From assembly GCF_001458695.1 (NCBI RefSeq), contig NZ_LN885086.1:2670001-2702000 (forward strand): DNA of 32,000 nucleotides, given 5' to 3'. The notes below the pieces were generated by a model that made no database searches, was not told the origin of the DNA, and saw nothing but the letters and a program-made list of their open reading frames with translations. This stretch comes from Candidatus Nitrospira inopinata (GTDB lineage Bacteria; Nitrospirota; Nitrospiria; Nitrospirales; Nitrospiraceae). Below are positions 9,037 to 24,163 of this stretch, in pieces (within the stretch, counting starts at the first letter, position 1; every line of letters begins with the position of its first letter). The position numbers and the translations under genes are program-made.

Positions 9037-11169
9037 ATGAGAGTGTGGCCAGGAAAACCCTACCCGCTCGGCGCCACGTGGGACGGGCAAGGAGTCAACT
9101 TCGCGTTGTTTTCCGAACACGCCACGGCCGTCGACCTTTGCTTATTCGACGGCCCCAAGCATGCGAAGGAATCTCTGCGTATTCGGTTGGAAGAACGCAC
9201 CGACCAAATTTGGCACGTCTATATTCCGGGGCTCTGGCCTGGCCAACATTACGGCTATCGAGTCCACGGCCCGTACGCGCCGGAAGAAGGCCATCGTTTC
9301 AATCCGGCGAAGCTGTTGATCGATCCCTACGCCAAATCCATCGCCGGAACGATCGAGTGGTCCGACGCGATGTTCGGCTACCGGATCGGCGATCCCCAAG
9401 CCGACCTGTCGATCGACCAGCGGGACAACGCCGCGAATGTTCCCAAATGCGTCGTCATCGACCCGGCCTTTTCATGGGGCGGCGATACACAACTGAAGAC
9501 GCCCTGGGACAAGACCATCATTTATGAGCTGCACGTGAAAGGCTTCACGGCGCGGCATCCGAACGTGCCGGAATCCATGCGCGGCACCTACGCGGCATTG
9601 ACGACTCCGGCCGTGTTGGATTATTTGCTCGATCTCGGTATTACGGCCGTCGAACTGTTGCCGGTCCATCATTTCGTCCGCGATCGACACCTGGCGGAAC
9701 GCGGACTGACGAACTATTGGGGGTACAACACGATCGGTTTCTTCGCGCCGGACATTCGCTACGCGGTTTCTCCCGTCGACGCCCACCATGTGCGTGAATT
9801 CAAAACCATGGTCAAGACGCTGCACAGCGCCGGGATCGAAGTCATTTTGGACGTCGTGTACAACCACACCGCGGAAGGCAATCACTTGGGCCCCACGTTG
9901 TCGTTTCGCGGGATCGACAACCTGTCCTATTACCGTCTTGTCGCCGACAACCGGCGGTTCTATATGGACTATACTGGTTGCGGGAACACCCTCAACGTCA
10001 CGCATCCTCGGACGCTGCAACTCATCATGGACAGTTTGCGCTATTGGGTGGTAGATATGCATGTGGACGGGTTTCGCTTTGACCTCGCGTCCGCCCTTGC
10101 GCGCGAGCTGCACGCCGTCGATCGGTTGAGCGCCTTTTTCGACATTCTGCATCAAGATCCCATTCTCTCCCAGGTCAAACTCATCGCCGAACCATGGGAC
10201 GTCGGCGAAGGCGGGTATCAAGTGGGCAACTTTCCGGTCGGCTGGGCCGAATGGAACGGCAAATACCGCGATACCATTCGACGGTACCTCAAAGGAGACG
10301 GAGGGCAGGTCGGGGAATTGGCCTATCGCCTCACCGGCAGCAGCGATCTGTACGAGGCCAGCGGCCGTCGGCCGTTCGCCAGCATCAATTTCGTGACGGC
10401 GCACGATGGATTCACGCTGCACGATCTGGTGTCCTACAACCACAAGCACAATGACGCCAACGGCGAGGACAACCGCGACGGCACCGACGACAACCTCAGT
10501 TGGAACTGCGGAGCGGAAGGGCCGACGAACGATCCGGCCATCAAGGAGCTGCGCGAGCGGCAAAAGCGGAACTTCCTCGCCCTCCTCCTGCTCTCCCAGG
10601 GAGTTCCGATGCTTTGCGGGGGCGACGAAATCGGCCGCACCCAGCACGGCAACAACAACGCGTATTGTCAAGACAACGACGTCAGTTGGTACGATTGGAA
10701 ACTGGACGCGACGAAGCGGGACCTCCTGTCCTTCGTGCGCAACCTGATCGCTTTCCGCAAACGACATCCGGTCTTGCGGCGGCGACGTTTTTTTCAGGGA
10801 CGTCGGCTCCGTGGTTCCGAAGTCAAAGACCTCTCCTGGTTCAGGCCGGACGGTAAAGAAATGACCGACGAGGATTGGAACGCCGGCTATGTGAAATCGC
10901 TCGCGCTTCGACTGGCCGGAGACGCGATCAGCGAAACCGACGAAAAAGGACGTCCCATTGTCGACGATACCATCCTGGTCCTGTTAAACGCCCATCATGA
11001 ACCGCTCGCGTTCACGCTTCCCGCTCACAAACGGGGGGTCCGTTGGCGCCCCGTCTTCGACACGTCCGCTCAGCCGAACGCCAAAAATTCCGTCGTCGTG
11101 TTCAAGGGAGGGGAGCGGTACGATCTGCAAGGCCGATCGATCGCCGTCCTGCGACTCGGCGATCAATAG
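9037..11169 (+). CDS. glgX: glycogen debranching enzyme GlgX/TreX (isoamylase-type GH13)
   Basis: [29 protein letters not shown] is the canonical GlgX N-terminus. Also [22 protein letters not shown] and [11 protein letters not shown] trimmed the track ORF start (8797), because that extension is antisense to treZ and not GlgX-like. Confidence 0.9.
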
Positions 11170-11191: not shown

Positions 11192-12388
11192 CTACTTGGC
11201 GATCGTGATAGGCAGCCCCTGCACCTTCGCCACGTCCGTGACGGTCATTTGGTAGAGCTGACTCATCAACTCGAAGGCTTCCCGGTTCCACCGCCTCACT
11301 TCTTCTTGACCTTCCGCTTGATTGTCGATGGCGTACCATCGCCCTTCGAGTTCGGCGACAAACGCAACGTCGGCCGGTCGCGTATCCGACTCCGTGATCG
11401 CCAGAGTCTTGACCGGATTGCGAAAGACGGCTCCGCTGCGCGGATCCGGTTGGACGTCGAATTCCGGCTCCGCCTCGATCCCCCTGGCCAAAAATTCAAG
11501 CATGGCGTTGAAGCTGCGGAGCTTGATTTGGCCATGCCAGGGATAGTCTCCTCCCGGATAGTTCGGACGGATATCGACCAGGACGTAATTGCGGGGATAC
11601 CGTTCCGCCTTGAGATGAAGGCCTCGTCGCTCTTCGTTCGTCAGCGACATCGGATCGTAATTCGTGATCGCCAATCGGCCGACGATGCGTTTCGAGAGAC
11701 GCAGGCGCCTGTCACCGTCTTGGCCCCATTGATAACCCTTGTCGATCGCTTGGGCGGTCATCTGATGATCAAGCGGAAGCGGCCACACTTCCTCAAACGT
11801 CAGAAAGCCCACGTGAAGATGGCGGGCCAGATTCAAGGCCGACAAATGCAGCACCCGCTTTCGGAATTCCCGGTATTCGTCCGCCCGGTGCGGCATGTTC
11901 AAATAAAACGTCCGCTTTCCTCCTTCCTCGACGGCCAACCCCCGTCCCATCAGCCTGAGCACGATCGCCGGCTCGACGCCTTGCGCCAACAAAAAATCCA
12001 GTTGCGTTTCGTCCATGGGCGTCAAGATCCGTTTCGTAAAGTCCTCGCCTTGAACGGGAACGATGCTTACGGTCGGATTTTCCGCCACGGTGGCGCCGAA
12101 ATTGAACAGAAAGAAATTTCTGGCGAACACCGGTCCGCTCGGCGCAAACAACTGAGAACCGAACCCCGCATTCGATCGAAAGTCAAAGGTCGCCGCCACG
12201 CTCGAAATCGCCGTGAAGTGGCGCGGTTGCCCCTGTTTGGCCCGCCCGATGTTCAGCAGGAGCATCTCGGCTTCGACCTCGTTGACCGTGCGGTCGTATT
12301 CGATCACCGCCCGGTGCATCGCCATCGGCGACAAGCAGCCGGTGAGACTCATCGTTGCAACCATTCCATACAGCAGGTGCCGAAGCAT
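11192..12388 (-). CDS. hypothetical lipoprotein, last gene of the ABC operon
   Basis: ATG 12386-12388 is preceded by GAGAGGAGGATT (strong SD), 10 nt after the ATPase stop. N-terminus MLRHLLYGMVATMSLTGC has a lipobox (LTGC). 398 aa with no catalytic motif I recognise. I rejected the 42-aa upstream extension in the track ORF. Confidence 0.7.
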   Translation of the reverse strand: MLRHLLYGMVATMSLTGCLSPMAMHRAVIEYDRTVNEVEAEMLLLNIGRAKQGQPRHFTAISSVAATFDFRSNAGFGSQLFAPSGPVFARNFFLFNFGATVAENPTVSIVPVQGEDFTKRILTPMDETQLDFLLAQGVEPAIVLRLMGRGLAVEEGGKRTFYLNMPHRADEYREFRKRVLHLSALNLARHLHVGFLTFEEVWPLPLDHQMTAQAIDKGYQWGQDGDRRLRLSKRIVGRLAITNYDPMSLTNEERRGLHLKAERYPRNYVLVDIRPNYPGGDYPWHGQIKLRSFNAMLEFLARGIEAEPEFDVQPDPRSGAVFRNPVKTLAITESDTRPADVAFVAELEGRWYAIDNQAEGQEEVRRWNREAFELMSQLYQMTVTDVAKVQGLPITIAK

Positions 12389-12398
12389 AATCCTCCTC

Positions 12399-13523
12399 TC
12401 ATGTTGTGATGCGCCGTTGCGGACGGTCGTATCGCCGACCGGTCGCCTGGTCGAACAGATGCAACGCCTCCCGCCCCGTTTCCACGACGGCGGCTTCTCC
12501 GATCTTGGGAACATATCCCGGGATGGTAGCGCCGACGATCGTAACGACCTCGTCCGAATCGGACAGTTCCACCGTGACCCACGCTATAGGCCAGGCCGGC
12601 TCCACCAACCTGACGATCCCTTGCACGGCCCGTCTCGTTTTCTCCTCGGTTGCCGGACCGACGGTGACGTCTTCCGGTCTGACTCCGACGGTCACCATTT
12701 GCCCCGGCGCAATCGTCGACGCCTCAGCCGGCAACGGAAAGCGCAACGGTCCGGCCGTAATCGTCCCATCCTCCATCCGCGCGTCGAACAGATTCATCGG
12801 CGGATACCCCACGAAACCGGCGACAAAGACGTCGGCCGGTCCGTCATAGACCTCCCGAGGATTGCCGACTTGTCGGAGCGACCCTCCATGAAGCACTCCG
12901 AGCCGATCGCCCATCGTCAGGGCCTCGCTTTGATCGTGCGTCACGTAAACGGTCGTCACCTTGAACTCTTCATGAAGACGTCGCAGTTCGGCCCGCATGG
13001 CGGCCCGCAACTGAGTGTCGAGGTTGGACAAGGGTTCATCCAGCAAGAACAGTCTGGGCTTTCTGATTAACGCCCTTCCAAGGGCCACCCGTTGCCGCTG
13101 CCCGCCGGACAGCTCTTGCGGCCGCCGATCCAACAGTGTGTCGAGCCCCAAAACTCCGGCCATCCGCCGTACTTCGTCTTCGATCATGGCCCGGTCGAGT
13201 CGCCTTGCTTTTTTCCGAACGCGAAGCGGGAACGACAGATTGTCCCGGACCGTCATGTGGGGGTAGAGCGCGTAGGTCTGAAACACCAACGCCACGTCCC
13301 GCTCCCGCGGATCCAGATCGGTGACGTCCCTCCCGTCGAACAAGATGCGGCCGGACGTCGGCCGATCCAACCCCGCCAGCAGATGCAAGAGGGTCGATTT
13401 TCCGCAGCCGGACGGCCCGACCAAAACGAAAAATTCCCCATCCTTCACCGTCAGATCCAGCGAATGGAGGATCGCCGTGGTCCCGATCAGCTTCTCCAGC
13501 CCTTCGATCCGCATCTCGGTCAT
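12399..13523 (-). CDS. sugar ABC transporter ATP-binding protein (MalK/SugC/UgpC type with C-terminal TOBE-like domain)
   Basis: 374 aa. Walker A GPSGCGKST, Q-loop, signature LSGGQRQRVALGRAL, Walker B LFLLDEPLSNLD, H-loop VTHDQ. The ~130-aa C-terminal regulatory domain is typical of CUT1 ATPases. Confidence 0.92.
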   Translation of the reverse strand: MTEMRIEGLEKLIGTTAILHSLDLTVKDGEFFVLVGPSGCGKSTLLHLLAGLDRPTSGRILFDGRDVTDLDPRERDVALVFQTYALYPHMTVRDNLSFPLRVRKKARRLDRAMIEDEVRRMAGVLGLDTLLDRRPQELSGGQRQRVALGRALIRKPRLFLLDEPLSNLDTQLRAAMRAELRRLHEEFKVTTVYVTHDQSEALTMGDRLGVLHGGSLRQVGNPREVYDGPADVFVAGFVGYPPMNLFDARMEDGTITAGPLRFPLPAEASTIAPGQMVTVGVRPEDVTVGPATEEKTRRAVQGIVRLVEPAWPIAWVTVELSDSDEVVTIVGATIPGYVPKIGEAAVVETGREALHLFDQATGRRYDRPQRRITT

Positions 13524-13527
13524 CCCG

Positions 13528-14391
13528 TCATCCCTTCACGCTTCCGGCCGTCAGTCCTCCGATAAGATGCCGGCTGAAGAAGGCCGCGAGTCCCGCGACC
13601 GGCAGCGTCACGATGATCGACGCCGCGGCGAGGTCTCCCCAGGGAATGTCATGGAGCCCCGGAAACAATGCGATCGCCACCGGGGCGGTTCGCGCCGCGT
13701 CGCTCGCCGTCAGCGTCAAGGCGAACATGAACTCGTTCCATGAGTGGATGAACGTCAACAATCCCGCCACCGCCAATCCGGGTCTCGCCGGCGGAAGTAT
13801 CACGGTCAGCAGGGCCTTGAGCGGCGTGCAGCCGTCGATGCGCGCGGCATGATACAGCTCGCGGGGCAACTGTCGGAACGCGACCGTCAGAAGCCAAATC
13901 GTCAACGGAAGCGCATGAACCGTGTGCGCGAGACCCAGGGCAATCAAGCTGTCCCGCAACCCCATCTCCCGCATCGTCAAATACAGAGGACTGATGATCG
14001 CGATCGGCGGGAACATCGAAGCCATGAGTATCGCTCCCAGAATCATCGGCCGTCCCGTTATCGGCAACCGGGCCAAAGCGAACGCGCAACACGAACCGAG
14101 CACAAGGGCGACGACGGTCGTACCCGTCGCGACCACCGTGCTGTTGATCAAGGCCTGAACCAGCGGCGAGTGGAACAACACCCGTTCGTAATGCGCCGCG
14201 GTCAACCGCGTCGGGAAAAGAGGGGGCAATCGCACCAATTCCTCGTCCGGCTTCACGGACGCGACGACCTGCCAGCCGAGCGGGCCGAGACAGAACATCG
14301 CGACGACCGCCAACAGGCAAACGTTCCGTCCGGCGGAAGCAACGTCCCAATCCGCCCCGTGATCGCGGCATGCGCGTTTCCGATCCGTCAC
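13528..14391 (-). CDS. sugar ABC transporter permease (MalG/SugB-like)
   Basis: GTG 14389-14391 overlaps the TGA (14388-14390) of the upstream permease (GTGA). Six hydrophobic segments. EAA loop LPRELYHAARIDGCTPLKALLTVILPPARPGL. The 607-aa track ORF extension is Arg/Gly-rich and lies in the alternate frame of the upstream permease. Confidence 0.85.
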   Translation of the reverse strand: MTDRKRACRDHGADWDVASAGRNVCLLAVVAMFCLGPLGWQVVASVKPDEELVRLPPLFPTRLTAAHYERVLFHSPLVQALINSTVVATGTTVVALVLGSCCAFALARLPITGRPMILGAILMASMFPPIAIISPLYLTMREMGLRDSLIALGLAHTVHALPLTIWLLTVAFRQLPRELYHAARIDGCTPLKALLTVILPPARPGLAVAGLLTFIHSWNEFMFALTLTASDAARTAPVAIALFPGLHDIPWGDLAAASIIVTLPVAGLAAFFSRHLIGGLTAGSVKG

Positions 14392-15323
14392 GTTGCGTCC
14401 CGCACCTGTCGCCGCAGCAACGTCATGTAGAAAAAAGACAGCGTCGCTGAAATCAGGAACATCGCCGTCGCCAGCGCGGATCCGTACCCCAGTTGCAGGG
14501 ACTGAAAGAGCGTTTTGTAGGCGTAGATCGAGAGTGTTTCCGTGGCGTTGCCCGGCCCTCCGCCGGTCAACACATAGACCGCGTCGAATACCCGCACGGC
14601 GTCCATGGTCCGAAACACCAGCGTGATCAGGATGACGGGAGTCAGCAGCGGCAGCGTGACCGACCGAAATCCATCCCACCATCCCGCGCCGTCGATCCGC
14701 GCGGCGGCGCGCAGTTCCCTCGGCAAGGCCTTTAGTCCGGCCAGCAACATCAAGGCGGCGAAGGGAGTGGTCTTCCACACGTCCATGAGGACGGCCGCAT
14801 GGATGGCCCAACGGGGATCGGCCAGCCAATCGATCGGCGCGTCGACGCCGATGCGAGCCAACACGTAATTGAGAAGGCCGTAATCGGGTTGATACAGCCA
14901 AAGCCAGATCTGGGCCGACACGACCGTCGGAACGGCCCAGGGCACGATGGCGACGGTTTGGGCCAGACGACCGAATCGCGTCCGTTCGTCGGTCAGGCCG
15001 TCCAGGAGCAACGCGAGCCCCAATCCGATCGGCAATTCCAGTCCCACCGAGAGACAAGTGAAATAGAGGGTCGTCCCGACGGCGGCCCGGAATCGTTCGT
15101 CGCCGAGCAGGTCCAGATAGTTTGCGAGCCCGACGAATTCGTCCACGTCGAAAATCGGCAGGCGATGTCGCAGGCTCAGCCAGAGCGCGGCCATGATCGG
15201 AGCAAGCGCCATGAGCGCGACCAGCGTCATCGCCGGAGTGGCGAGCACATAGCCCCAAATCCGTTCGGAGAGGTTCCATCGACGTCCGTCGGCTTTTTGA
15301 CCGTTGAAAGCGGCCGTCTTCAT
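14388..15323 (-). CDS. sugar ABC transporter permease (MalF/SugA-like)
   Basis: ATG 15321-15323 overlaps the SBP stop TGA 15320-15322 (ATGA). 311 aa. EAA loop LPRELRAAARIDGAGWWDGFRSVTLPLL. Multiple TM segments. Confidence 0.85.
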   Translation of the reverse strand: MKTAAFNGQKADGRRWNLSERIWGYVLATPAMTLVALMALAPIMAALWLSLRHRLPIFDVDEFVGLANYLDLLGDERFRAAVGTTLYFTCLSVGLELPIGLGLALLLDGLTDERTRFGRLAQTVAIVPWAVPTVVSAQIWLWLYQPDYGLLNYVLARIGVDAPIDWLADPRWAIHAAVLMDVWKTTPFAALMLLAGLKALPRELRAAARIDGAGWWDGFRSVTLPLLTPVILITLVFRTMDAVRVFDAVYVLTGGGPGNATETLSIYAYKTLFQSLQLGYGSALATAMFLISATLSFFYMTLLRRQVRDAT

Positions 15324-16600
15324 GGTTCGCGCTCCGTCGACGCCGTCGCAAGTCTCGGCAAGAGCCAATCTCTCTGACGGCGAACCGTCCGGAGCACGTC
15401 GCGGGGCTCCTTCGTCCCGACCACCAGCGCGCTCAATTCTGGCTGCGCCGCTTGAGACAGCAAGAGGTAATAGGGCGTGATCGGCCTGGGCCTTGCGCTC
15501 AAAAAGATGGGAAACAGATCCTTGAAGATCGGCTTCGCGTCCGACAACGTTTGCTCGGCGTACAGAGCGATTCTCGTCGGATTGTAGCCGAGTTCCATGG
15601 CCATCCGGCGCTGGACGTCCGGGGATGTGAGAAACCCAACAAGGTCGCGCGCCTCCTTTTGATGAGGCGAGTGTTTGGCGACCGCCAGCAACCACCCGCC
15701 TAAGACCGAGACGCCGGGAAAACCTGAAAAAGCGGGAACGGGGGCGATGCCGACCTTTCCTCGGACCGGCGATCCCTCTCGTTGCAGCAACGACCAGGCG
15801 TACGGCCAGTTCCGCATAAACAGGGCTCGCCCCTCGCCGAACAGCAGACGGGTCGAATCCTCATCGGCCATGCCGATCGAGAGGGGCGTGATCTTGTGTG
15901 TCCAGACGAGATCCCGCAGGAGTTGCAATCCCTCCTCGGCTCGATCGCGATCTCCCACCCACAGATCGCTCCCGTTGCTCCTGAGCACTTCAAGGGCGAC
16001 GCAGACCAGCCCTTCGTATTGCTTTCCTTGCCACACAAAACCGGCCAATTTGGGGTCCCGTTCCGCATCCAGGACCAGACGAGCCGCGCGGAGCAGCTCC
16101 GGCCACGTTCTTGGAGGATCGAGCGCGTACCGCTCCAACAGATCTTTCCGGTAATAGAGGACTCCGGCGTCGATGTACCACGGCACGGCGTAGAGTCCGC
16201 CGTCCCGTGTCGCCGCCTCGATCGGCCCAGGGAAAAAGTCCTCCCGCCGTATCGTCGGCGGCAAATCATCCAGAGGCGCAATCCACCCCGCCTTGGCGAA
16301 TTCCTGAACCCAAATCACGTCCAGACTCAGCACGTCGAACGGAGCGCGTCCCCCGTCGAGACTCATGGTGTAATACTGGTGCTGTTGATCCGAAGAAGAA
16401 GGCAGCACCTCTTCCCGCACGGTCACACCTGGATGCCGTCGCTCGAATTCCCTCAGCAGGCCGCTCAACGTGCGTTCGTCGCCGGAGAGTCGCCCGTGCT
16501 TAAAGATCAAGACCGTCGAGGCGGCCCGAGATGCGTCGTCCCTCTGCGTGCAGCCGAGGATCGACACCAGAGACAACAGGATCCATGCTCGCGTCATCAC
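15320..16600 (-). CDS. ABC transporter substrate-binding lipoprotein, CUT1 family (trehalose/maltose or glycoside-solute binding type; LpqY-like organisation)
   Basis: Signal peptide plus lipobox M(M)TRAWILLSLVSILGCTQ. SBP family-1 features: DVLSLDVIWVQEFAKAGWIAPLDD, WYIDAGVLYYRKDLL. Start is GTG 16600 or the adjacent ATG 16597; both overlap the upstream stop TGA 16597-16599. Confidence 0.85.
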   Translation of the reverse strand: MMTRAWILLSLVSILGCTQRDDASRAASTVLIFKHGRLSGDERTLSGLLREFERRHPGVTVREEVLPSSSDQQHQYYTMSLDGGRAPFDVLSLDVIWVQEFAKAGWIAPLDDLPPTIRREDFFPGPIEAATRDGGLYAVPWYIDAGVLYYRKDLLERYALDPPRTWPELLRAARLVLDAERDPKLAGFVWQGKQYEGLVCVALEVLRSNGSDLWVGDRDRAEEGLQLLRDLVWTHKITPLSIGMADEDSTRLLFGEGRALFMRNWPYAWSLLQREGSPVRGKVGIAPVPAFSGFPGVSVLGGWLLAVAKHSPHQKEARDLVGFLTSPDVQRRMAMELGYNPTRIALYAEQTLSDAKPIFKDLFPIFLSARPRPITPYYLLLSQAAQPELSALVVGTKEPRDVLRTVRRQRDWLLPRLATASTEREP

Positions 16601-17304
16601 ATGTGCCGCAAATCGTCGGGCGATCGGTCGCGCCCACGGCCGGACAACGTTCGTTCAAGGTAGTCCTTGGCCAAATCCTTGGCGCCGAGCCCGAACGCCA
16701 AACAGGCGGCGAACACGATCCCGCCGAACGTAATGCCGAACCCGACGATCACCACGCTGGCCGCAATACCCAATTCTTCCAGCGCCATGGCGAGCGCGAA
16801 CAACCGCACGCCCCACCGCGACAGGCTGGCGATGAGTCGGGCCGGAGGAAGGCCGGCGTTGACCGCCGCGATCAAGACCCCCTGGGAAATAAAATTCGAT
16901 AGCAGGTAGCCGGCGATCAGAATCACGGCGGCGATCAACACGTGGGGAATATAGGCCAAGAGCGATTGGGCGAATTGATTGATCGGTTTGAGATTGAGCG
17001 CGCCCAGTCCGGCAATCACCGCGAAGAGGGCAATGACCCAATAGGTCATGCGTCCCACGATCTGCGAGGGATCCGACTTGACCCCTCCGCGGCCCAGCGC
17101 CGCGTTGACGCCGAGCCGGTCGCACAAATGGTCCAATCTCACGACCCGCAGCAATCGCTCGACGGCGTACCCCAGCGCCCAGGCCATGGCGAATCCGACT
17201 CCGATAATGATGGCCATCGCCAAGACGTTCGGCAAAATCGCCAGGACTTGCCGGCCCAAGTGCTCCAACGGCGCAAGCAACGCCTTGTCAAAGAAGTCCT
17301 GCAT
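16597..17304 (-). CDS. membrane protein with conserved TM-helix repeats (type found fused to or adjacent to MscS channels)
   Basis: 235 aa with four to five hydrophobic helices in repeated blocks (LPNVLAMAIIIGVGFAMAWALGYAV; IPHVLIAAVILIAGYLLSNFIS; ...VIVGFGITFGGIVFAACLAFGLGAKDLAKDYLE). SD AAGGGAGG lies 5 nt upstream of ATG 17304. The family call is from memory of the TM_helix repeat pattern. Confidence 0.65.
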   Translation of the reverse strand: MQDFFDKALLAPLEHLGRQVLAILPNVLAMAIIIGVGFAMAWALGYAVERLLRVVRLDHLCDRLGVNAALGRGGVKSDPSQIVGRMTYWVIALFAVIAGLGALNLKPINQFAQSLLAYIPHVLIAAVILIAGYLLSNFISQGVLIAAVNAGLPPARLIASLSRWGVRLFALAMALEELGIAASVVIVGFGITFGGIVFAACLAFGLGAKDLAKDYLERTLSGRGRDRSPDDLRHM

Positions 17305-17340
17305 GTCCGCCTCCCTTCTTGCCGTCCACGCCGCCGGCGT

Positions 17341-18639
17341 TTATGAGCGCGGCCGGCCGCTCCAACGATCGACGAGATAGGATTTTCGTTCCTCGAACGC
17401 CAGGCACAATTGTTCGACTCTCCGCTCCGCTTCGGCGGATGTGAGTCCCTGGGTCTCCAGCACAAAGGTCGCCGTCCGTCCCAGATACAACGGCGTGAGG
17501 GCCTTCAACAGGTGCTCGCGGGGCATCACGCGGCCGTGATAGGCCACGGCCGCCTCATAAATGACGCGGACCCAGAGATCGTCCGGAATGCGAAACTCGA
17601 CGGGAGAAGCCGCTCGGAGCGGCGACAGTTCCGCGACGATCTCCCGCCCCAACATTTGTTCCCAAATGGGAGCCAGATCCTCCATGCCCTGCCGAAACGC
17701 GTGAATCATTCGATCCACGTTCACGTGAACCGGCTCGACGCCCACTTCATATTGAAACCCGAAGATCTTGACCGGCACCGAGCCGTTTTGCGCCAACCAG
17801 ACCTCATGATGTTCCTCCATCAACGCGAACAAGGCCCCCAGGACCTGCATCAGCATGGCGGCCAAATCGGCGGACGGGTCCTTGGGATTGTGAATTTTGG
17901 CGCCGAGAAAACTCTGGCAGACGCGGGCGCCGCTCGCGATGGCCTCCGTCGTCATCCAAATATCGATACCGAATCGCGCCACGTCCGACTCCCAGACGTG
18001 CTGATCCAAATAATGCTCGGCCAGCCGGCCGGAAAACCCGAAATCGCCTCCGATCGGTTGTCTGATCCGCTGGCCGTACAGCGCCCTCGTGAGCGGATAG
18101 ACGATGCTGTTTGTAATGGTCCCGTCGTACTTGTGGCGCAGATAGTAGGGGGCGACGTAGTCGTAGTGCTCGTCAAGAACGGGTCGCAAGAGCAGTTCGA
18201 TCCATTCGGGCGTGATGCTCCGCAAATCGGAATCCACCACCGCGCAGGCCTTCGCGTCAAGCCGGCGCGCAATCTCAAAAATCGTCCGGAACGCGCTTCC
18301 CTTCCCGGGAATCCCGTGATAGGGCGTAATGATCTTTTGAAGCCGGCTCTGTTGATCGCTGATGAGCAGGGCGCCGTAGTCGACGATCGACCGTGCGACG
18401 ACCTCGGTCGTGCCGTCGGACGATCCTCCGTCGGAATTCACGAGCACGGCCCGTCGCTCGGGAAAGTATTTCGCCAGGCCCGCGCTGACGGCCCGCACCA
18501 CGTGGCCGATCGTGTCGGCGTTGTTGTAGCTGGGAATGCCGACCAGGAGATCGGCCTGGCGGATGTCGGACAACCTGGCTTCCGTCTCTTCGGCGAGAGA
18601 GACCGAAGGCTTGGCTGATTGCATGTCCTGCGTTTTCAT
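17341..18639 (-). CDS. GT-A fold glycosyltransferase of unassigned specificity, translationally coupled to the GpgS-like gene
   Basis: ATG 18637-18639 overlaps the upstream stop TGA 18636-18638 (ATGA), so I trimmed the track ORF by 29 aa. LLVGIPSYNNADTIGHVV and NSDGGSSDGT are GT2-like nucleotide-binding motifs. AVVDSDL is a DxD motif. The C-terminal ~200 aa carry no motif I recognise. Confidence 0.75.
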   Translation of the reverse strand: MKTQDMQSAKPSVSLAEETEARLSDIRQADLLVGIPSYNNADTIGHVVRAVSAGLAKYFPERRAVLVNSDGGSSDGTTEVVARSIVDYGALLISDQQSRLQKIITPYHGIPGKGSAFRTIFEIARRLDAKACAVVDSDLRSITPEWIELLLRPVLDEHYDYVAPYYLRHKYDGTITNSIVYPLTRALYGQRIRQPIGGDFGFSGRLAEHYLDQHVWESDVARFGIDIWMTTEAIASGARVCQSFLGAKIHNPKDPSADLAAMLMQVLGALFALMEEHHEVWLAQNGSVPVKIFGFQYEVGVEPVHVNVDRMIHAFRQGMEDLAPIWEQMLGREIVAELSPLRAASPVEFRIPDDLWVRVIYEAAVAYHGRVMPREHLLKALTPLYLGRTATFVLETQGLTSAEAERRVEQLCLAFEERKSYLVDRWSGRPRS

Positions 18640-19859
18640 TTGGTGGGATCCCATCGATGGTCCTCTTCCACTGCATTCATCAGGCGTTCGAAAATATCGG
18701 GAACCGCCGCCGCCACTCGGCTCCAATTGGAAATCATCGGGACTCCCAACGGGTCCTTTTGGAACACGTCCGAGGCCAGTTTGATTCCTTTGAGGAACGT
18801 CTCGACGGCGGTTCTCTCGGCGTGTCGGTCGAACTTCAAACTGTTGATGGCCGCGCTGTCTTCGTACCGGCGAATGGCCTCCTCGGCCAATCGGAGATAG
18901 GTGGCCCGCAACGTCTTCAGCTCCGCGTCGCCGAGCACCACTCCCAGGCTGGACAAATGGCGGAACAACGACTTCGAAATATCCACCGTCATCTTGAGGA
19001 GGCCCTTTTCGGGATCATCGGAGGACAGCATCTGATGCTTGTGCTCGTAGGCGTCCGCGATGTCCGCCTGACAGACGCGCCGCAACGCGCAATTGCGAAA
19101 GACTTCGGCCAGAATCCCGATTTCCAACCCCCAATCGCCCGGAATCCGATTGACCCATGCCAGATCGCGCACCATGGCGAATTCCCCCGCAAGCGGATAG
19201 CGGAAACTGTCCAAAAACGTCAGCAACGGCTGGTCTCCCACCAGTTGCTGCAACGAGCGAATGACCGGCGTGAAAAACAGTCTGGTCACGCGCCCGTGCA
19301 ACCGATCCGTGACGCGACTGTAATAGCCTTTGCAGAACTCATAGCCTAAATTGGGATTGGCCACCGGATAACACAACCGCGCCAGGTATTCCCTCCTGTA
19401 GCTCACGATGTCGCAGTCGTGCAGGGCGATCACCTGGCTTTGACGGCGGGCCAGCACATACCCGAAGGCGAGCCAGCATGATTGCCCCTTCCCCGGCAAT
19501 CCGACGTCGATTTCCCGCTCAACCAACGTTTTCAGAAGATCTTGAATGCGCGCGCCGTCGATCCAAACGAGCCGAACGAATTGCGGGAGTGCCTTGAAGT
19601 AGTCCCTGGCGCGACGAAATTCAAGAGGCGAGGCGCGTCCCAGCGCGACCACGATCTCATTCAGATACGATACCCGCTTCAATTCCGCCACGATCCCGGA
19701 CAGCGCGGGCCCCTCAAGCTCGGAATAGAGACACGGCAACACCAACGCAATAGGGTTGACGGTACGATACTGTTCGAGCTCGTGTTCCAGCCGATCCACG
19801 TTGGGAGAACCCAGGCGATGGAGCACGCTGACCACTCCGTTTTGAAAGAAATCCGCCAT
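18636..19859 (-). CDS. glucosyl-3-phosphoglycerate synthase-like retaining glycosyltransferase (GT81-type; mannosyl-3-phosphoglycerate synthase not excluded)
   Basis: 407 aa. N-terminus MADFFQNGVVSVLHRL, GLPGKGQSCWLAFGY, ALHDCDI (DxD) and HGRVTRLFFTPVIRSL resemble GpgS-type motifs (GKG..W, D.D, GRVTEL..RPL). SD GAGAGG lies 8-13 nt upstream of ATG 19859. Assigned from memory, not a search. Confidence 0.6.
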   Translation of the reverse strand: MADFFQNGVVSVLHRLGSPNVDRLEHELEQYRTVNPIALVLPCLYSELEGPALSGIVAELKRVSYLNEIVVALGRASPLEFRRARDYFKALPQFVRLVWIDGARIQDLLKTLVEREIDVGLPGKGQSCWLAFGYVLARRQSQVIALHDCDIVSYRREYLARLCYPVANPNLGYEFCKGYYSRVTDRLHGRVTRLFFTPVIRSLQQLVGDQPLLTFLDSFRYPLAGEFAMVRDLAWVNRIPGDWGLEIGILAEVFRNCALRRVCQADIADAYEHKHQMLSSDDPEKGLLKMTVDISKSLFRHLSSLGVVLGDAELKTLRATYLRLAEEAIRRYEDSAAINSLKFDRHAERTAVETFLKGIKLASDVFQKDPLGVPMISNWSRVAAAVPDIFERLMNAVEEDHRWDPTK

Positions 19860-20132
19860 GTGATTTTCCTCTCAACTGTTTCAATCGCTTTTCCGTGAGA
19901 CCGAACGCCGCGGCTCATTCGCTCGGAGAGCCAGCATCGCATAATTATCGAGCCGATCCCAGTCTGATTTGTACCTCTCTCTCTAAGGACATTTCAAATT
20001 CATCCCGCCGTTCGAGAAGCGGAAACGTGAGCCCTCCCTTTTATCAATTCGTTCCGTCGTCTAAAATCACCAGGCACGCGCCGCTTTGCGCGTAGAATGG
20101 GTTGCAAGGCGACCCGACGATGATGAAGGGTG

Positions 20133-20972
20133 ATGAGTAAGAACGGAACATCTTCGTGGAGCATGGTCGTCTTTACGGACTTGGACGGCACTCTGTTGAA
20201 CAGCCGGACCTATCGATTCGACGAAGCGGGCGAGGCGTTGGATGCCCTGCATGCCCGCGGGATTCCGGTCGTTCTGGTTTCAAGCAAGACCAGGGCGGAG
20301 ATAGAGCCGATCCGCTCTCAACTGCGCAACGATCACCCCTTCATCGTGGAAAACGGAGGCGCCGTGTTTATTCCGGCAAAGTATTTCTCGTTCCCTCTTC
20401 CCGCCACCGGAGTTTCCGGTCCTTATCGCGTCGTCGAATTCGGTATGCCCTATCCTCTCCTCCGCAAAGCGTTGAAGGAGATCGAACGTGATGTCGGCCT
20501 GTCCCTCACTGGATACGGCGACTTGTCGGCTGATGACATTGCATCACGAACGGGCCTGTCCTCCAAGGAAGCGGCCTTGGCCAAACAACGAGAGTACGAC
20601 GAGCCGTTTTTCATCGAAGGAACCCACCGCGCCACCCCCGGGCTCGCGGCGGCCATCGAACGCCGCGGCCTGAACTGGACCACGGGGGATCGCTGCCATC
20701 ACTTAATGGGGTCTCAGGACAAGGGACGCGCCGTTCGCCGTCTCATTGAATACTACCGACAGGCCGCCGCGGACCATCACCATGGGCTCACGACGGTCGC
20801 CGTTGGAAACAGCCTCAATGATCTGCCGATGCTGGCTGCCGTGGACAAGCCCATCCTTGTCCGGCAAACGGACGGTTCCTATGCCGCCGGCGTCGATCTG
20901 CCCGGGCTTATTCACGCCCCCGCGCCTGGTCCGGTCGGGTGGAATCAGGCCATCCTTTCCTTGCTGCGTTGA
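20133..20972 (+). CDS. HAD-IIB phosphatase of the mannosyl-3-phosphoglycerate phosphatase (MPGP/YedP) family; candidate glucosyl/mannosyl-3-phosphoglycerate phosphatase
   Basis: VVFTDLDGTLL (HAD motif I), VVLVSSKT (motif II), ENGGAVFIP, GNSLNDLPML (motif IV). Length and layout resemble E. coli YedP and MpgP. Start is ATG 20133, or the GTG at 20130. Confidence 0.75.
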   Translation: MSKNGTSSWSMVVFTDLDGTLLNSRTYRFDEAGEALDALHARGIPVVLVSSKTRAEIEPIRSQLRNDHPFIVENGGAVFIPAKYFSFPLPATGVSGPYRVVEFGMPYPLLRKALKEIERDVGLSLTGYGDLSADDIASRTGLSSKEAALAKQREYDEPFFIEGTHRATPGLAAAIERRGLNWTTGDRCHHLMGSQDKGRAVRRLIEYYRQAAADHHHGLTTVAVGNSLNDLPMLAAVDKPILVRQTDGSYAAGVDLPGLIHAPAPGPVGWNQAILSLLR

Positions 20973-21128: not shown

Positions 21129-21917
21129 TTAGCGAAGTGTGCGCGTTGTTTCAGGCGTTCCGTCGAGACGGTGAACCAGAAACCGCAGCACGTCCTCCAC
21201 TTCGCTTTGATGCTTGACATAGTAGCGTGCCTGAGATTGGGGATGGTGCCCGACACGGACCCCCAGCGTCAGCCTGTCCCGCATGGCGAAGACCGTTTCG
21301 TCGGTCTCATCGTCTCCGATAAAAAACAGCCCCGTACAGTGGAGATGATTCATAAGGGCGAACGAAGCCTCTCCTTTTCCGGGGCTTCCGGGGGGAAGAA
21401 GGTTGATGGAAGCTTTGCCCGGTATCATTCGCGGAGAGGGAGTCAACCGCTCGGCTGCGTGAACCAACTCGCGTTCGACGGCGCCCGGCTCATCGACGCC
21501 TCGATAATGAAGAGTCAAACTATACCGTTTGTTTTCGATCACGACGCGGGCGTCGGCGAAAAACCGAGCCTTGGTTCCTTCCAGTTGTTTTACCCATCCC
21601 GAGCAGATGAGATCCATGTCGTTCAGCACGGCGGCCGGCGTCAGCGGACTTTCGGCTCCATGGTTTCCGATCAGATGGGGCACCGCTCCGTTGACGCGCG
21701 GCGCTAGGTCGTCGAGCGCCCTTCCCGACACCACGGCGCAGGGTACGCGCCGGGCCAGTTCCCGCAACCATTCGTGCATGGTCGGCGAAAGTTTGACGCT
21801 CCCGCGCTCGGAGGAGATTTTCGCCAGGGTCCCGTCAAAGTCGAACGCGTACAGTACGGACCGGTTGATCATCTTTCTGAGGGCGTCGCGCCCTTCGTCC
21901 GACAAGAGATAGGTCAT
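21129..21917 (-). CDS. otsB: trehalose-6-phosphate phosphatase
   Basis: ATG 21915-21917 overlaps the otsA stop TGA 21914-21916 (ATGA). YAFDFDGTLA (DxDGT), VVSGR, IGNHGAE and FIGDDETDE are OtsB/HAD-IIB motifs. The 69-aa upstream extension of the track ORF lies inside otsA in another frame, so I rejected it. Confidence 0.85.
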   Translation of the reverse strand: MTYLLSDEGRDALRKMINRSVLYAFDFDGTLAKISSERGSVKLSPTMHEWLRELARRVPCAVVSGRALDDLAPRVNGAVPHLIGNHGAESPLTPAAVLNDMDLICSGWVKQLEGTKARFFADARVVIENKRYSLTLHYRGVDEPGAVERELVHAAERLTPSPRMIPGKASINLLPPGSPGKGEASFALMNHLHCTGLFFIGDDETDETVFAMRDRLTLGVRVGHHPQSQARYYVKHQSEVEDVLRFLVHRLDGTPETTRTLR

Positions 21918-24163
21918 GTCTGTCCTCCGACCGTCGTCTCGATGCTCCGGCCGCCCATTTCTCGCGCGAGACGGGCCCGCTGTCTCATGCGGGCCGCGTC
22001 CATCAGCATCCGGCCCGCCCAGCGATACACGTTGAATTCCTGGACGATCCCGCGAAGGCTGCGCATTCTGGCCCGTTGCTCGACTCCGGACATCGTCAAG
22101 GCAACGTGCATGGCGGCCGCGCATTGATCGATGTTGTAAGGATTGACGATCAGCGCTTCCACCAACTCAGCCGCCGCTCCGGTAAACTGGCTCAGAATCA
22201 ACACCCCCTGCTCGTCGTCCCTTGCGGCGACGAATTCCTTGGCGACCAGATTCATGCCGTCGTGCAGGCTGCTCACGATGCACAAGTCGGCAGCCCGATA
22301 ATACAGGGTGATCTGTTCCGGCTCATGGTGCTCGATCTTGAGAACGATCGGCCGATAGCCGTCACGGCCGAACCGTCGGTTGATGCGGTCCGCCGATGTC
22401 TGGACTTGCTGCTCCAGTTGTCGATACTCGTCGATCTTGGACCGGCTGGGAGCGGCCACTTGCAGGAACGAGAACCTGCCGATCCACTCCGGTTGAAGCT
22501 CGAGCAGCCGTTCGACCGCCAAGAATCGTTCGAGGATGCCCTTCGTATAATCCAACCGCTCGACGCCGACTCCCAATCGATGTCCATGAGGGAACCCATA
22601 CATCGCGCGGACGTGCGTTCGGCACGTCTCCACGGGCGGAGCCTGGGACAGCACTCGGCTCGGCCACTCAATGGAGATCGGATAGTGATTCACCGCCGTC
22701 AATTTGCCGCCGTATGAAACGGTGGCGCCGTCCCGGTCAATGCGGCTTTCCAACGATCTGTCTACCGTATCGATGAAATTGCTGCAATGAAATCGCGTGT
22801 GAAAACCGAGGATGCTGCTCCCCAACAGACCCTCCAGAATTTCACGATACCATGGACAGATCGCGTATCGCTCCGGATTGGGCCACGGAATGTGCCAAAA
22901 CGTAATGATCGTGGCGTTCGGCAGATGATCCCTCACGATTTTCGGTACGAGCGCGAGATGATAGTCCTGCACCAGGACGACGGGATTGTCCGTCTTGGCC
23001 TCCTCGACGATCGCCGCCGCAAACCGTTCGTTGATCTCTTTGTAGAGCCGCCAATCGGAAGAGCGGAAGATGGGCCGTACGTGAGCCAGATGGCACAGCG
23101 GCCAGAGCCCTTCGTTTGAAAACCCGTAGTAGTAGCCGTCTTCTTCCTCCGGCGTCATCCAGATCCGTCGAATCTCATAAGCCGGCGCCTCGGGCGGCAC
23201 CCGCACGTGATCCCGTTCATCGACGACCAGCCGGTCGGCACTCCCGCTGCCGTGCGCGATCCAAATTCCCGAACAGGCCCGCATGATCGGCTCCAAGGCC
23301 GTGACGAGCCCGCTGGCCGGCACCTGCACGCCGATGCGTTCTCCGTACCGAGTGTGAATGTACGGCTCCCTATTCGAAACGATCAGCACTTCGTCGCCGG
23401 CAAGATGATCGTGCAGGATGGACTTGAGCGTGGCCGGCTTCCAACTCAATTGGCTTTCGTCGCGCATGCGTTTGTCCGCCTGGAGTTCATGAATCATGGC
23501 ACGGAGATCCTGCGCCACGGGCTGCAGTTCCGGTGTTTGTCTCTGATCTTTGATCAAGCCGATCAACCCCTCGCCGCGCAGCATGCCCCGCACGCCTTCC
23601 ACCCATCCGCGCCAACTCAAATGCGCCACCACGACCGTCACGAGCGAAATCATGACCCCGATGCCCGCGAAGAGGTAGAACAGATACCACTTCGTGGCGC
23701 TGCTTCTCCGCTCGACCCAACTCATGTCATGAATGAGCAGAAGCCGCCCCAGCGAACGGCCCGCGTGGTCGATCCCCACGGCGGCCACATGCACGGGCCC
23801 CTGCGCCAGCCGCACGACGGCGGCGGGGCCGGACTTGAGCGCGACGGCCCGTTCGCACGTCATCGACGCTGGATAGGTTTGAGTTTTATAGATCAACTGA
23901 TTGTGCGGGTCGCAAAATCCGATGGCGAACAACCGTTCGTCTTGGATCACCCGCTGAAAGTAGGCCAGCAGCTTCGCCTTCGACTCCGACGTCAGCAGAT
24001 CGGTCAGCGGCCCCTCCATCGTGCCGGCAATCAATTGCGCCCGAATCTCTATATCGCGAACGAACCATTTCAACGTGAGGTTGTCGACCAACGGAATCAC
24101 GCCGTACGCGATGCCGGCCAGAACCACCATCAGGGGCAGAAGAAAACGAAGGGACAGGCGCAT
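21914..24163 (-). CDS. otsA: alpha,alpha-trehalose-phosphate synthase (GT20) with N-terminal two-TM extracytoplasmic module
   Basis: 749 aa. From about residue 258: [88 protein letters not shown], which are GT20 hallmarks. Residues 1-257 contain two hydrophobic helices (6-26, 159-183) flanking a ~130-aa hydrophilic segment. SD GAGAGGTG is upstream of ATG 24163. Confidence 0.9.

What the first reader, a model, noticed from the sequence alone, without database searches (positions are those of the whole stretch)
11192..19859. Eight-gene translationally coupled operon fusing glycoside-solute synthases to a CUT1 ABC importer and two unknown envelope proteins
Seen:
- Eight minus-strand genes run from 19859 down to 11192.
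- Four junctions are start/stop overlaps: ATGA at 18636-18639 and 15320-15323, GTGA at 14388-14391, and GTGATGA at 16595-16600.
- The other three junctions are gaps of 36, 4 and 10 nt. Two of these carry a clear SD (AAGGGAGG, GAGGAGG) and one a weaker AAGGGA.
- I see no hairpin/T-tract inside the block.
- Gene order: GpgS-like GT81, second GT-A, TM-helix-repeat protein, lipoprotein SBP, permease, permease, ATPase, unknown lipoprotein.

Established:
- GpgS-type enzymes make glucosyl-3-phosphoglycerate.
- CUT1 importers with lipoprotein SBPs recapture leaked solutes, for example LpqY-SugABC for trehalose in mycobacteria and GgtABCD for glucosylglycerol in Synechocystis.

Inference: a single transcript couples synthesis of a glycerate-type glycoside solute to a dedicated recapture importer and two uncharacterised envelope components. 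I do not know of a characterised operon with this make-and-recapture architecture. It is the best candidate in this window for an undescribed functional module.
Basis: partly seen in the sequence, partly recalled or inferred. Interest (0 to 1): 0.7.

Follow-up and report, generated by a model that had tools for sequence, protein, structure and literature searches.

The report
Nitrospira glucosylglycerate operon with optional sugar importer
This is a real eight-gene operon in a comammox Nitrospira that joins genes for the stress-protectant sugar glucosylglycerate to a sugar importer, but the importer is an optional add-on most like trehalose/maltose importers. The widely conserved feature is a tight pairing of one synthase with a small membrane protein related to mechanosensitive channels.

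Summary
Eight minus-strand genes (19859 to 11192) are packed with 1-4 nt overlaps or gaps of 4-36 nt, and promoter-like and terminator-like sites are no more frequent than chance. The source is Ca. Nitrospira inopinata or a near-identical strain.

- g1 is a Methanococcoides-type GpgS homologue and g2 is a glucosylglycerate-synthase-like GT. The matching phosphatase (GpgP/MpgP family, 20130-20972, +) sits divergently upstream and was missed.
- The block lies inside a trehalose/glycogen island: TreY, TreZ, GlgX, OtsA, OtsB, TreH and MscS.
- The ABC cassette is not a fixed partner of the synthases. It is absent from the otherwise identical operon in five close Nitrospira relatives. It is absent beside Ggs-like genes in 27 of 27 well-flanked metagenomic loci. 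In another Nitrospira it sits beside GlgX without any GG genes.
- The binding protein is most similar to the Thermococcus trehalose/maltose-binding protein (E 2e-86).
- g3, a protein carrying only PF05552, directly follows the Ggs-like gene in 67 of 68 loci, down to 35% identity. I found no paper describing this pair.
- g8 is a Nitrospirales-only lipoprotein with no Pfam, PDB-sequence or PDB-fold match.

Verdict: a new variant of a known kind (osmolyte synthesis, valve and uptake clusters), of moderate interest.

The parts
18636..19859 (-). g1: glucosyl-3-phosphoglycerate synthase homologue (Methanococcoides/Persephonella type), 407 aa
   Evidence: NF040724 GpgS_Meth, E 1.7e-104, residues 3-401 against model positions 2-399 of 402, 350 bits (cut-off 700). 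Weak matches to mycobacterial GpgS structures. A GAGAGGAAAA motif lies upstream of the ATG.
17341..18639 (-). g2: glucosylglycerate-synthase-like GT-A glycosyltransferase, 432 aa (alternative start at 18654)
   Evidence: Pfam GT2, 27 bits. Precomputed MGS_GT and GT2 domains in homologues, and the JGI name 'glucosylglycerate synthase' for P0034, P0057 and the P0252 cluster. The family has 757 representative clusters at E<1e-30.
16597..17304 (-). g3: 235-aa polytopic inner-membrane protein with two PF05552 repeats ('mechanosensitive channel, conserved TM helix') and no MscS beta or vestibule domains
   Evidence: PF05552 E 6.5e-14; NF033912 'msc' 85 bits, below the 100-bit cut-off. Four to five hydrophobic helices. 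Lies directly downstream of the Ggs-like gene in 67 of 68 metagenomic loci.
15320..16600 (-). g4: lipoprotein solute-binding protein of the CUT1 importer (lipobox ILGC), 426 aa
   Evidence: SBP_bac_1 E 2.3e-43. Best PDB matches: 1eu8 trehalose/maltose-binding protein 1.8e-86, 6dtq MalE3 1.1e-81, SmoF 1.6e-62, LpqY 2e-35.
14388..15323 (-). g5: ABC permease (UgpA/MalF-like), 311 aa
   Evidence: BPD_transp_1 E 1.4e-19; UgpA model E 1.9e-40.
13528..14391 (-). g6: ABC permease (MalG-like), 287 aa (public annotations start at 14298)
   Evidence: BPD_transp_1 E 6.9e-13; MalG model E 5.6e-29. The N-terminus is conserved to residue 3 in L015 and L016.
12399..13523 (-). g7: MalK/UgpC-type ABC ATPase with C-terminal OB/TOBE regulatory domain, 374 aa
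   Evidence: ABC_tran E 3.2e-36, OB_MalK, CysA_C, TOBE_2. UgpC model 394 bits.
11192..12388 (-). g8: Nitrospirales-restricted lipoprotein (lipobox LTGC), 398 aa, with no recognisable family or fold
   Evidence: No Pfam, NCBIfam or PDB sequence hit. The AF2 model (pLDDT 79) has no Foldseek match in the PDB at E<0.09. 180 relatives in 185,579 species genomes; nearly all of the 80 listed are Nitrospirales. It is kept in the operons that lack the ABC genes.
20130..20972 (+). GpgP/MpgP-family HAD-IIB phosphatase, divergently transcribed from g1. This is the missing second step of the two-step GG pathway.
   Evidence: TIGR01486 239 bits (cut-off 165); TIGR02461 240 bits (cut-off 244). Its position next to GpgS is conserved in many other lineages.
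19860..20129 (.). 270-nt divergent intergenic region between g1 and the phosphatase gene; presumed promoter and regulatory region
   Evidence: Sequence. No sigma-70 consensus hit, no Rfam hit and no inverted repeat.
3942..11169 (.). Flank: TreY (3942-6932, -), TreZ (7038-8954, -) and GlgX (9037-11169, +), the glycogen-to-trehalose route
   Evidence: TIGR02401 964 bits, TIGR02402 757 bits, Isoamylase/CBM48. The GlgX-ABC adjacency is also seen in L019.
21129..25996 (.). Flank: OtsB (21129-21917, -), OtsA (21914-24163, -) and a GH15 trehalase-like TreH (24212-25996, +)
   Evidence: T6PP TIGR00685 87.5 bits (cut-off 68); GT20 E 3e-116; TreH1 model E 6e-76.
28928..31282 (+). Flank: large MscS-family mechanosensitive channel
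   Evidence: MscK, MscM and MscS models E 1e-15 to 1e-18. MS_channel_2nd and MS_channel_3rd domains.

Best explanation
This is a lineage-specific composite osmoadaptation operon of Ca. Nitrospira inopinata, assembled from modules with different evolutionary histories.

Module 1, the widely conserved core, makes glucosylglycerate (GG).
- g1 (GpgS) and the divergently encoded GpgP give the two-step route from NDP-glucose and 3-phosphoglycerate.
- g2 (Ggs-like) gives a one-step route from NDP-glucose and glycerate.
- g2 comes with its near-obligate partner g3, a small inner-membrane protein built only from the tension-sensing 'paddle' helices of MscS-like channels.
- I infer that g3 works with the synthase. 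It could be a tension-gated release valve for the solute, or a membrane-tension/osmotic sensor that tethers or regulates the enzyme.

Module 2 (g4-g7) is a facultative CUT1 ABC importer.
- Its lipoprotein binding protein belongs to the trehalose/maltose-binding (TMBP/MalE3) clade.
- It most likely imports or recaptures neutral alpha-glucoside disaccharides, above all trehalose. The flanking TreYZ and OtsAB genes make trehalose.
- GG, which is also an alpha-glucoside, may be a secondary ligand.

Module 3 (g8) is a Nitrospirales-only envelope lipoprotein of unknown fold. It travels with the GG genes rather than with the importer.

Status of each step:
- Shown: gene content, packing, family assignments, and the presence/absence and synteny patterns.
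- Inferred: co-transcription, substrates, and the roles of g3 and g8.
For: - Operon anatomy.
- GpgS, GpgP and Ggs-like assignments.
- g2-g3 adjacency: 67 of 68 loci chosen only by g2 similarity, median gap 8 nt, g2 identity 35-83%. The partners are PF05552 proteins of about 235 aa.
- Ggs-like genes occur without a nearby GpgS in 11 of 27 well-flanked loci, as expected for a self-sufficient one-step synthase.
- The ABC cassette is absent in L007-L010 and L012 but present in L011 and L013-L016. The presence/absence pattern does not follow the gene tree. No SBP or permease lies near Ggs-like genes elsewhere. ABC sits next to GlgX without GG genes in L019.
- SBP similarity to 1eu8 and 6dtq. The Trp corresponding to TMBP Trp295, which PMC13311272 places in the binding pocket, is conserved.
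- Nitrospira genome papers already list trehalose synthesis and a trehalose transporter (PMC13032477).
- Natural fusions of Ggs-like GTs to TrkA_N and Usp domains fit an osmotic or K+ stress role.
- A trehalose/MscS island surrounds the operon.
Against: - No expression data, so co-transcription of all eight genes is inferred from spacing only.
- g1 scores half the equivalog cut-off, and g2 could not be compared directly with the characterised Persephonella Ggs.
- At this level of similarity to TMBP (294 bits, near full length) ligand specificity cannot be read from sequence. The third-best PDB relative (SmoF) binds an anionic glycoside, so an anionic ligand such as GG is not excluded.
- g3 lacks the pore-lining and vestibule domains of MscS. 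Its AF2 model is poor (pLDDT 67) and has no significant structural match, so 'valve' versus 'sensor/anchor' is open.
- No natural g2-g3 fusion was found among the seven longer-than-usual family members examined (five of them 622-1179 aa).
- The function of g8 is unknown.
Confidence: 0.6

Rival explanations
1. One reading: one dedicated machine that makes a glycerate-type glycoside and recaptures that same solute. The binding protein is specific for GG or a GG derivative, and g3 and g8 are accessories of that cycle.
For: The genes are contiguous, with overlaps, in this genome and in L011 and L013-L016. GG is an alpha-glucoside, and TMBP-clade and Thermus-type binders can be promiscuous. SmoF, a binder of an anionic glycoside, is the third-best PDB relative.
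Against: The cassette is missing from five close relatives that keep g1-g2-g3-g8. It never accompanies Ggs-like genes in other lineages (0 of 27). It accompanies GlgX without GG genes in L019. Its best relatives bind trehalose or maltose.
Confidence: 0.2
2. The importer is simply a nutritional or glycogen-linked maltose/trehalose/sucrose uptake system that has landed inside the operon. It has no role in solute recycling, and its co-location with the GG genes is historical accident.
For: The cassette is facultative and mobile between alleles. It is adjacent to GlgX, TreZ and TreY here and to GlgX in L019. It has a MalK-type ATPase with a regulatory domain.
Against: Nitrospira are chemolithoautotrophs with limited sugar use (own knowledge). 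The stop/start overlaps with g3 and the 10-nt spacing to g8 imply co-expression with the solute genes. The arrangement is kept down to 68% SBP identity (L014-L016).
Confidence: 0.13
3. The two glycosyltransferases do not make a free compatible solute. They prime a membrane or envelope glycoconjugate, as GG primes methylglucose lipopolysaccharide in mycobacteria, and g3 and g8 act in its membrane assembly or export.
For: A cytoplasmic GT is tightly paired with a polytopic membrane protein across phyla. A lipoprotein of unknown fold is present in the operon. GG is a known polysaccharide primer in mycobacteria (PMC3240985 and PMC2674218 abstracts).
Against: The GpgS plus MpgP-family phosphatase plus Ggs-like set is the compatible-solute gene set. 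The neighbours are trehalose genes, MscS and ion transporters, not polysaccharide or lipid genes. No flippase, polymerase or methyltransferase is present in the operon.
Confidence: 0.07

Closest known systems
Persephonella marina glucosylglycerate genes (GpgS and GpgP two-step route plus Ggs single-step route; Costa 2007, Fernandes 2007; cited in PMC3736172, gene order from my own recollection)
   Same: Both routes to GG are encoded together. GpgS is of the Methanococcoides/Persephonella type, the phosphatase is of the MpgP family, and the second enzyme is a GT-A.
   Different: Here the phosphatase is divergent. The Ggs-like gene is followed by a PF05552 membrane protein, an ABC importer and a lipoprotein. 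Enzyme activities were not tested, and no direct sequence comparison with the P. marina proteins was possible.
Synechococcus sp. WH8102 predicted operon SYNW1279-1286 (ggpS with ggtCDA) and Synechocystis GgtABCD (PMC2874817)
   Same: A glucoside-osmolyte synthase gene is predicted to share an operon with CUT1 ABC importer genes for that class of solute. This is the 'make and recapture' layout.
   Different: The solute there is glucosylglycerol, not GG. There is no PF05552 partner and no g8-type lipoprotein. The importer in Nitrospira is demonstrably optional.
Nitrosopumilus maritimus hyp-ectABCD-mscS operon (Widderich et al. 2016, ref. 92 of PMC5924519; operon content from my own knowledge)
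   Same: Osmolyte biosynthesis genes are co-encoded with a mechanosensitive-channel-type membrane protein, read as a built-in release valve.
   Different: That gene is a full MscS with pore and vestibule. g3 has only PF05552 paddle helices. The GT-PF05552 pairing found here spans several lineages rather than a single organism.
Thermococcus litoralis trehalose/maltose ABC transporter (TMBP, PDB 1eu8) and Thermotoga MalE3 (6dtq)
   Same: They are the closest solved relatives of g4 (E 1.8e-86 and 1.1e-81, near full length). They have the same CUT1 subunit composition.
   Different: They come from hyperthermophiles that use them for nutrition. The ligand of g4 is untested.
Mycobacterial LpqY-SugABC trehalose recycling importer (PMC7949145)
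   Same: A lipoprotein binding protein, two permeases and a MalK-like ATPase recapture a self-made alpha-glucoside.
   Different: The similarity is only distant (E 2e-35 over the N-terminal 230 residues). LpqY recycles cell-wall-derived trehalose, and it is not linked to synthase genes.

Membership tests
GpgS, glucosyl-3-phosphoglycerate synthase (NCBIfam NF040724, Methanococcoides type) | Score at or above the curated equivalog cut-off (700 bits) | tested here: not met
   350 bits, E 1.7e-104, but the alignment is end to end (3-401 against 2-399 of 402). It is a clear homologue, not a certified equivalog.
GpgS, glucosyl-3-phosphoglycerate synthase | Genomic pairing with an MpgP/GpgP-family HAD-IIB phosphatase | tested here: met
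   The phosphatase at 20130-20972 scores 239 bits on TIGR01486 (cut-off 165) and is divergent from g1. GpgS-GpgP adjacency recurs in many other loci.
GpgS, glucosyl-3-phosphoglycerate synthase | NDP-glucose:3-phosphoglycerate glucosyltransferase activity; CAZy GT81 membership | not testable with these tools
   No enzymology and no CAZy/dbCAN library available. There is only weak similarity to GT81 structures (E 6e-06).
Ggs, glucosylglycerate synthase (EC 2.4.1.268, Persephonella marina type) | Sequence similarity to the characterised enzyme | tested here: inconclusive
JGI names proteins 80-83% identical to g2 (P0034, P0057), and members of a 44%-identical Acidobacteria cluster, 'glucosylglycerate synthase'. 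Pfam gives GT2 and MGS_GT only.
Ggs, glucosylglycerate synthase | Can act without GpgS and GpgP (single-step route) | tested here: inconclusive
   11 of 27 well-flanked loci have the Ggs-like gene with no GpgS within 6.5 kb. This is consistent with the feature, but GpgS could be encoded elsewhere in those genomes.
CUT1 (carbohydrate uptake transporter 1) ABC importer | Cluster-B/SBP_bac_1 binding protein, two BPD_transp_1 permeases (MalF/UgpA-like and MalG-like), and a MalK/UgpC-type ATPase with a C-terminal regulatory domain | tested here: met
   PF01547 E 2e-43; PF00528 twice; PF00005 with OB_MalK, TOBE_2 and CysA_C; UgpC model 394 bits.
Trehalose/maltose-binding protein clade (TMBP, 1eu8) | Near full-length similarity and conserved pocket tryptophan (TMBP Trp295) | tested here: met
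   294 bits over residues 32-414. The LGGW tryptophan and the RNWPYAW and FVWQGKQYEGLVC blocks are conserved. Trp295 is placed in the pocket by PMC13311272.
Trehalose/maltose-binding protein clade (TMBP, 1eu8) | Binding of trehalose or maltose | not testable with these tools
   Needs ITC or DSF with purified g4.
MscS-family mechanosensitive channel | Pore helix with beta-domain (PF00924) and C-terminal vestibule (PF21082) | tested here: not met
   g3 has only PF05552 (two repeats). NF033912 scores 85 bits, below the 100-bit cut-off. Foldseek gives only a non-significant partial match to MscS TM helices (5aji, E 4.7). g3 should not be filed as an MscS channel.
Bacterial lipoproteins (g4, g8) | Signal peptide ending in a lipobox [LVI][ASTVI][GAS]C | tested here: met
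   g4 has ...LVSILGC and g8 has ...MSLTGC. The G-C of g8 is invariant in 30 homologues.

The most novel reading that the evidence does not exclude
The PF05552-only membrane protein (g3) is an obligate, previously undescribed partner of single-step glucosylglycerate synthases across several bacterial lineages. It would be either a minimal tension-gated conduit that vents the solute or a membrane-tension sensor that switches the synthase on and off. In the N. inopinata lineage this pair would then have been extended with an envelope lipoprotein of novel fold (g8) and an importer, giving a three-layer make, release and recapture device.
Probability: 0.3. Interest if true: 0.7.

Novelty: new variant of a known kind. 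Interest (0 to 1): 0.45.

Why it matters
- Glucosylglycerate has not been reported in Nitrospira in the literature I could search. Only one paper in the library contains both words, and only in passing. Comammox and nitrite-oxidising Nitrospira are key nitrifiers in wastewater, drinking-water and soil systems, where salt, drying and nitrogen limitation fluctuate. Their solute repertoire is therefore of practical interest.
- The near-universal pairing of a Ggs-like synthase with a PF05552 'paddle-only' membrane protein gives a testable handle on two open questions. One is what PF05552-only proteins do. The other is how cells couple osmolyte synthesis to membrane tension.
- The natural presence/absence polymorphism of the importer in otherwise identical operons is a ready-made experiment on the value of solute recapture.
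- The headline claim of a new 'make-and-recapture' architecture is not new in kind.

Tried and rejected
1. Structure of g8. The AF2 model (pLDDT 79) searched against the PDB with Foldseek gave nothing below E 0.09. No function could be assigned.
2. Structure of g3. The AF2 model is poor (pLDDT 67, pTM 0.45) and Foldseek gave only noise plus a non-significant MscS TM match.
3. Remnants of the ABC genes in the 117-nt g3-g8 spacer of the ABC-less relatives. Local alignments score no better than shuffles, so insertion versus deletion cannot be decided from the spacer. The tree suggests allele exchange.
4. Compositional signature of horizontal transfer for the cassette. GC3 is 0.73-0.79 against 0.72-0.80 for g1-g3 and g8, so there is no anomaly.
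5. Idea that g8 is a partner of MscS channels. An MscS gene follows the N. defluvii paralogue, but this is not general across 68 loci. Rejected.
6. Natural Ggs-PF05552 fusions among the long family members. None found; instead there are TrkA_N, Usp and GT-GT fusions.
7. Internal promoters, terminators, riboswitches and inverted repeats. Nothing above chance.
8. The unknown 386-aa gene between GpgP and Ggs in another clade is unrelated to g8 or g1.
A six-sequence alignment worked.
10. The Persephonella papers (PMC1913396) are not held, so that gene order rests on my recollection.

Full report
SOURCE AND ANATOMY

The window matches NCBI assembly GCA_001458715.1, contig CZLC01000009. A protein 100% identical to g3 is named from Candidatus Nitrospira inopinata on a 3.295-Mb contig. 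The organism is therefore this comammox Nitrospira or a near-identical strain.

All eight minus-strand ORFs are present at the stated coordinates. The junctions, read from the sequence, are:
- ATGA at 18639-18636.
- A 36-nt gap with AAGGGAGG.
- GTGATGA at 16600-16594.
- ATGA at 15323-15320.
- GTGA at 14391-14388.
- A 4-nt gap.
- A 10-nt gap with GAGGAGG.

Start-codon alternatives exist for three genes: g2 (ATG 18654), g4 (ATG 16597) and g6 (ATG 14298, used in public annotation). For g6, homology at 68% identity reaches residue 3 of the long form, which favours the overlapping GTG.

A consensus scan of the block found 1 promoter-like site against 1.9 expected and 8 terminator-like sites against 9.0 expected. 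There is no Rfam element. Such packing is normal operon anatomy and not in itself unusual.

WHAT THE GENES ARE

- g1 aligns end to end with the Methanococcoides-type GpgS model (E 1.7e-104) but scores 350 bits against an equivalog cut-off of 700.
- g2 is a GT-A/GT2 protein. Proteins 80-83% identical to it, and a 44%-identical cluster from Candidatus Acidoferrales, carry the JGI name 'glucosylglycerate synthase'. The family is large, with 757 clusters at 50% identity and E<1e-30.
- g3 has two PF05552 repeats and four to five hydrophobic helices. It has none of the MscS pore or vestibule domains.
- g4-g7 are a complete CUT1 importer. g4 has a lipobox.
- g8 also has a lipobox. It has no Pfam, NCBIfam or PDB sequence match.

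A GpgP/MpgP-family HAD-IIB phosphatase lies divergently upstream at 20130-20972 (TIGR01486, 239 bits against a cut-off of 165). It completes the two-step GG route.

The operon also sits in an osmoadaptation island:
- TreY, TreZ and GlgX on one side.
- OtsB, OtsA and a GH15 trehalase-like gene on the other.
- An M50/CBS protease and a large MscS channel further on.

THE IMPORTER IS OPTIONAL AND LINEAGE-SPECIFIC

A scan of 185,579 species genomes with g8 returned 80 loci, and tblastn with all window proteins mapped their gene orders.
- The full eight-gene order recurs in L011, L013, L014 and L016. L015 carries g2-g8, but its contig ends before g1.
- In five close relatives (L007-L010 and L012; g8 87-93% identical) the order is g1-g2-g3-g8-GlgX. 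The four ABC genes are cleanly absent and a spacer of about 117 nt joins g3 to g8.
- The spacer has no detectable remnant of the cassette.
- The ABC-less allele occurs in non-sister branches of a g2+g3+g8 tree. This points to exchange of alleles by recombination.
- In Nitrospira UBA6493 (L019) the same importer (66-70% identical) lies next to GlgX. There is no GpgS or Ggs within 10 kb, and the surrounding genes are ion transporters.

The binding protein's closest solved relatives are:
- The T. litoralis trehalose/maltose-binding protein (1eu8, E 1.8e-86, near full length).
- Thermotoga MalE3 (6dtq, E 1.1e-81).
- SmoF, followed by the Thermus alpha-glycoside binders.
- More distantly, LpqY.

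The tryptophan equivalent to TMBP Trp295, which PMC13311272 places in the pocket, is conserved.

Published Nitrospira genome surveys already list trehalose synthesis and a trehalose transporter (PMC13032477). The most economical reading is a trehalose/maltose-type alpha-glucoside importer that belongs with the trehalose genes. In one Nitrospira sublineage it has become embedded in the GG operon. GG as an additional ligand cannot be excluded by sequence.

THE CONSERVED CORE IS g2 PLUS g3

I scanned metagenome contigs with an alignment of distant Ggs-like proteins, headed by an Acidobacteria-type sequence. This gave 80 loci in which g2 identity ranges from 35% to 83%. The loci were chosen by g2 similarity alone.
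- In 67 of the 68 loci with at least 700 nt downstream, a g3-like gene follows directly on the same strand. The median gap is 8 nt.
- The partners are about 235-aa PF05552 proteins with shared motifs.
- Of the 27 loci with at least 5 kb on both sides, 16 have GpgS within 6.5 kb and 14 have GpgP. The orders seen are GpgS-GpgP-X-Ggs-g3 or GpgS-Ggs-g3-GpgP.
- None of those 27 has an SBP or permease gene within 6.5 kb, and none has g8.
- The 11 loci without a nearby GpgS fit a self-sufficient single-step synthase.
- Some long family members are natural fusions of the GT to TrkA_N or Usp domains, or to a second GT. These fit an osmotic or K+ stress role. No GT-PF05552 fusion was seen.

I found no paper linking PF05552 proteins or mechanosensitive channels to GG synthases.

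g8

- The family has 2,173 hits among 5.8 billion proteins. It has 180 relatives in genomes, and those listed are almost all Nitrospirales.
- The AF2 model (pLDDT 79, with a well-ordered core at residues 120-380 and a low-confidence long beta-hairpin at 59-111) has no Foldseek match in the PDB.
- Orthologues at 63-66% identity, in N. moscoviensis and UBA6493, lie among Na+/H+, Na+/Ca2+, P-type ATPase, CNNM and MgtE genes.
- Paralogues at about 50% identity lie by MsrPQ-like, AhpC, ECF-sigma, TPR and cytochrome bd genes.
- It is an envelope lipoprotein of unknown function. It stays with g1-g3 when the importer is absent, so it is not an importer accessory.

MECHANISM, COMPARISON AND VERDICT

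Best-supported mechanism (confidence about 0.6):
- Under osmotic, nitrogen or thermal stress the cell makes GG by two routes: g1 with GpgP, and g2.
- g3, in the inner membrane, acts with g2 as a tension-gated vent or as a sensor/anchor. This role is inferred.
- The optional importer recovers leaked alpha-glucoside solute, most likely trehalose.
- g8 has an unknown envelope role.

Rival explanations:
- A purely nutritional sugar importer co-located by accident (0.13).
- A glycoconjugate-priming pathway (0.07).

The layout resembles known clusters that combine osmolyte synthesis with uptake or a valve. Examples are ggpS-ggtCDA in Synechococcus WH8102 (PMC2874817) and ectABCD-mscS in Nitrosopumilus (reference in PMC5924519; operon content from my own knowledge). 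I therefore rate it a new variant of a known kind, with interest 0.45.

The most novel reading still open is an obligate synthase-'paddle protein' module that couples GG synthesis or release to membrane tension. I put its probability at about 0.3 and its interest, if true, at about 0.7.

Noticed in passing
window 21914-24163 (-): OtsA is 749 aa. The GT20 domain covers only residues 258-723. The N-terminal 255 or so residues contain two predicted hydrophobic segments (1-31 and 159-184), which suggests a membrane-anchored, possibly sensing, trehalose-6-phosphate synthase.
   Followed up: no
P0267, P0250, P0242, P0306, P0244 (representatives of the g2 family): There are natural fusions of Ggs-like glycosyltransferases to a TrkA_N (RCK) domain, to Usp domains, and to a second GT domain. 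These hint at regulation by K+ or stress signals and at two-sugar products in some lineages.
   Followed up: partly
L114:8811-9971 (+), and the same position in many loci: In another clade the cluster reads GpgS-GpgP-[386-aa protein]-Ggs-PF05552. The inserted protein has no Pfam or NCBIfam match and is unrelated to g8 or g1.
   Followed up: partly
L018 (N. moscoviensis NZ_CP011801, 2.34 Mb) 3851-12165; L019 (Nitrospira UBA6493): The 63-66% orthologues of g8 lie among ion-homeostasis genes. In N. moscoviensis they lie next to an MFS transporter and a GDE_N_bis/MGH1-like glycoside hydrolase (mannosylglycerate-hydrolase-like), a candidate solute-degrading enzyme.
   Followed up: partly
L020-L086 (g8 paralogues, 47-54% identity); N. 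moscoviensis has two copies (L018, L067): Paralogues of the g8 lipoprotein recur next to molybdopterin oxidoreductase/cytochrome b561 (MsrPQ-like), AhpC/TSA, ECF sigma factor, TPR and cytochrome bd genes. This suggests a Nitrospirales-specific envelope-stress lipoprotein family.
   Followed up: partly
L007-L010, L012 versus window 12389-16596: The ABC-less operon allele carries a homologous spacer of about 117 nt in lineages that are not sisters in the g2+g3+g8 tree. The presence/absence polymorphism therefore appears to be exchanged by recombination among closely related Nitrospira.
   Followed up: yes
window 26666-28093 (+), 28928-31282 (+), 31547-31619 (+): An M50 peptidase with CBS domains, a 784-aa MscS-family channel and a tRNA gene close the island on the right-hand side.
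   Followed up: no
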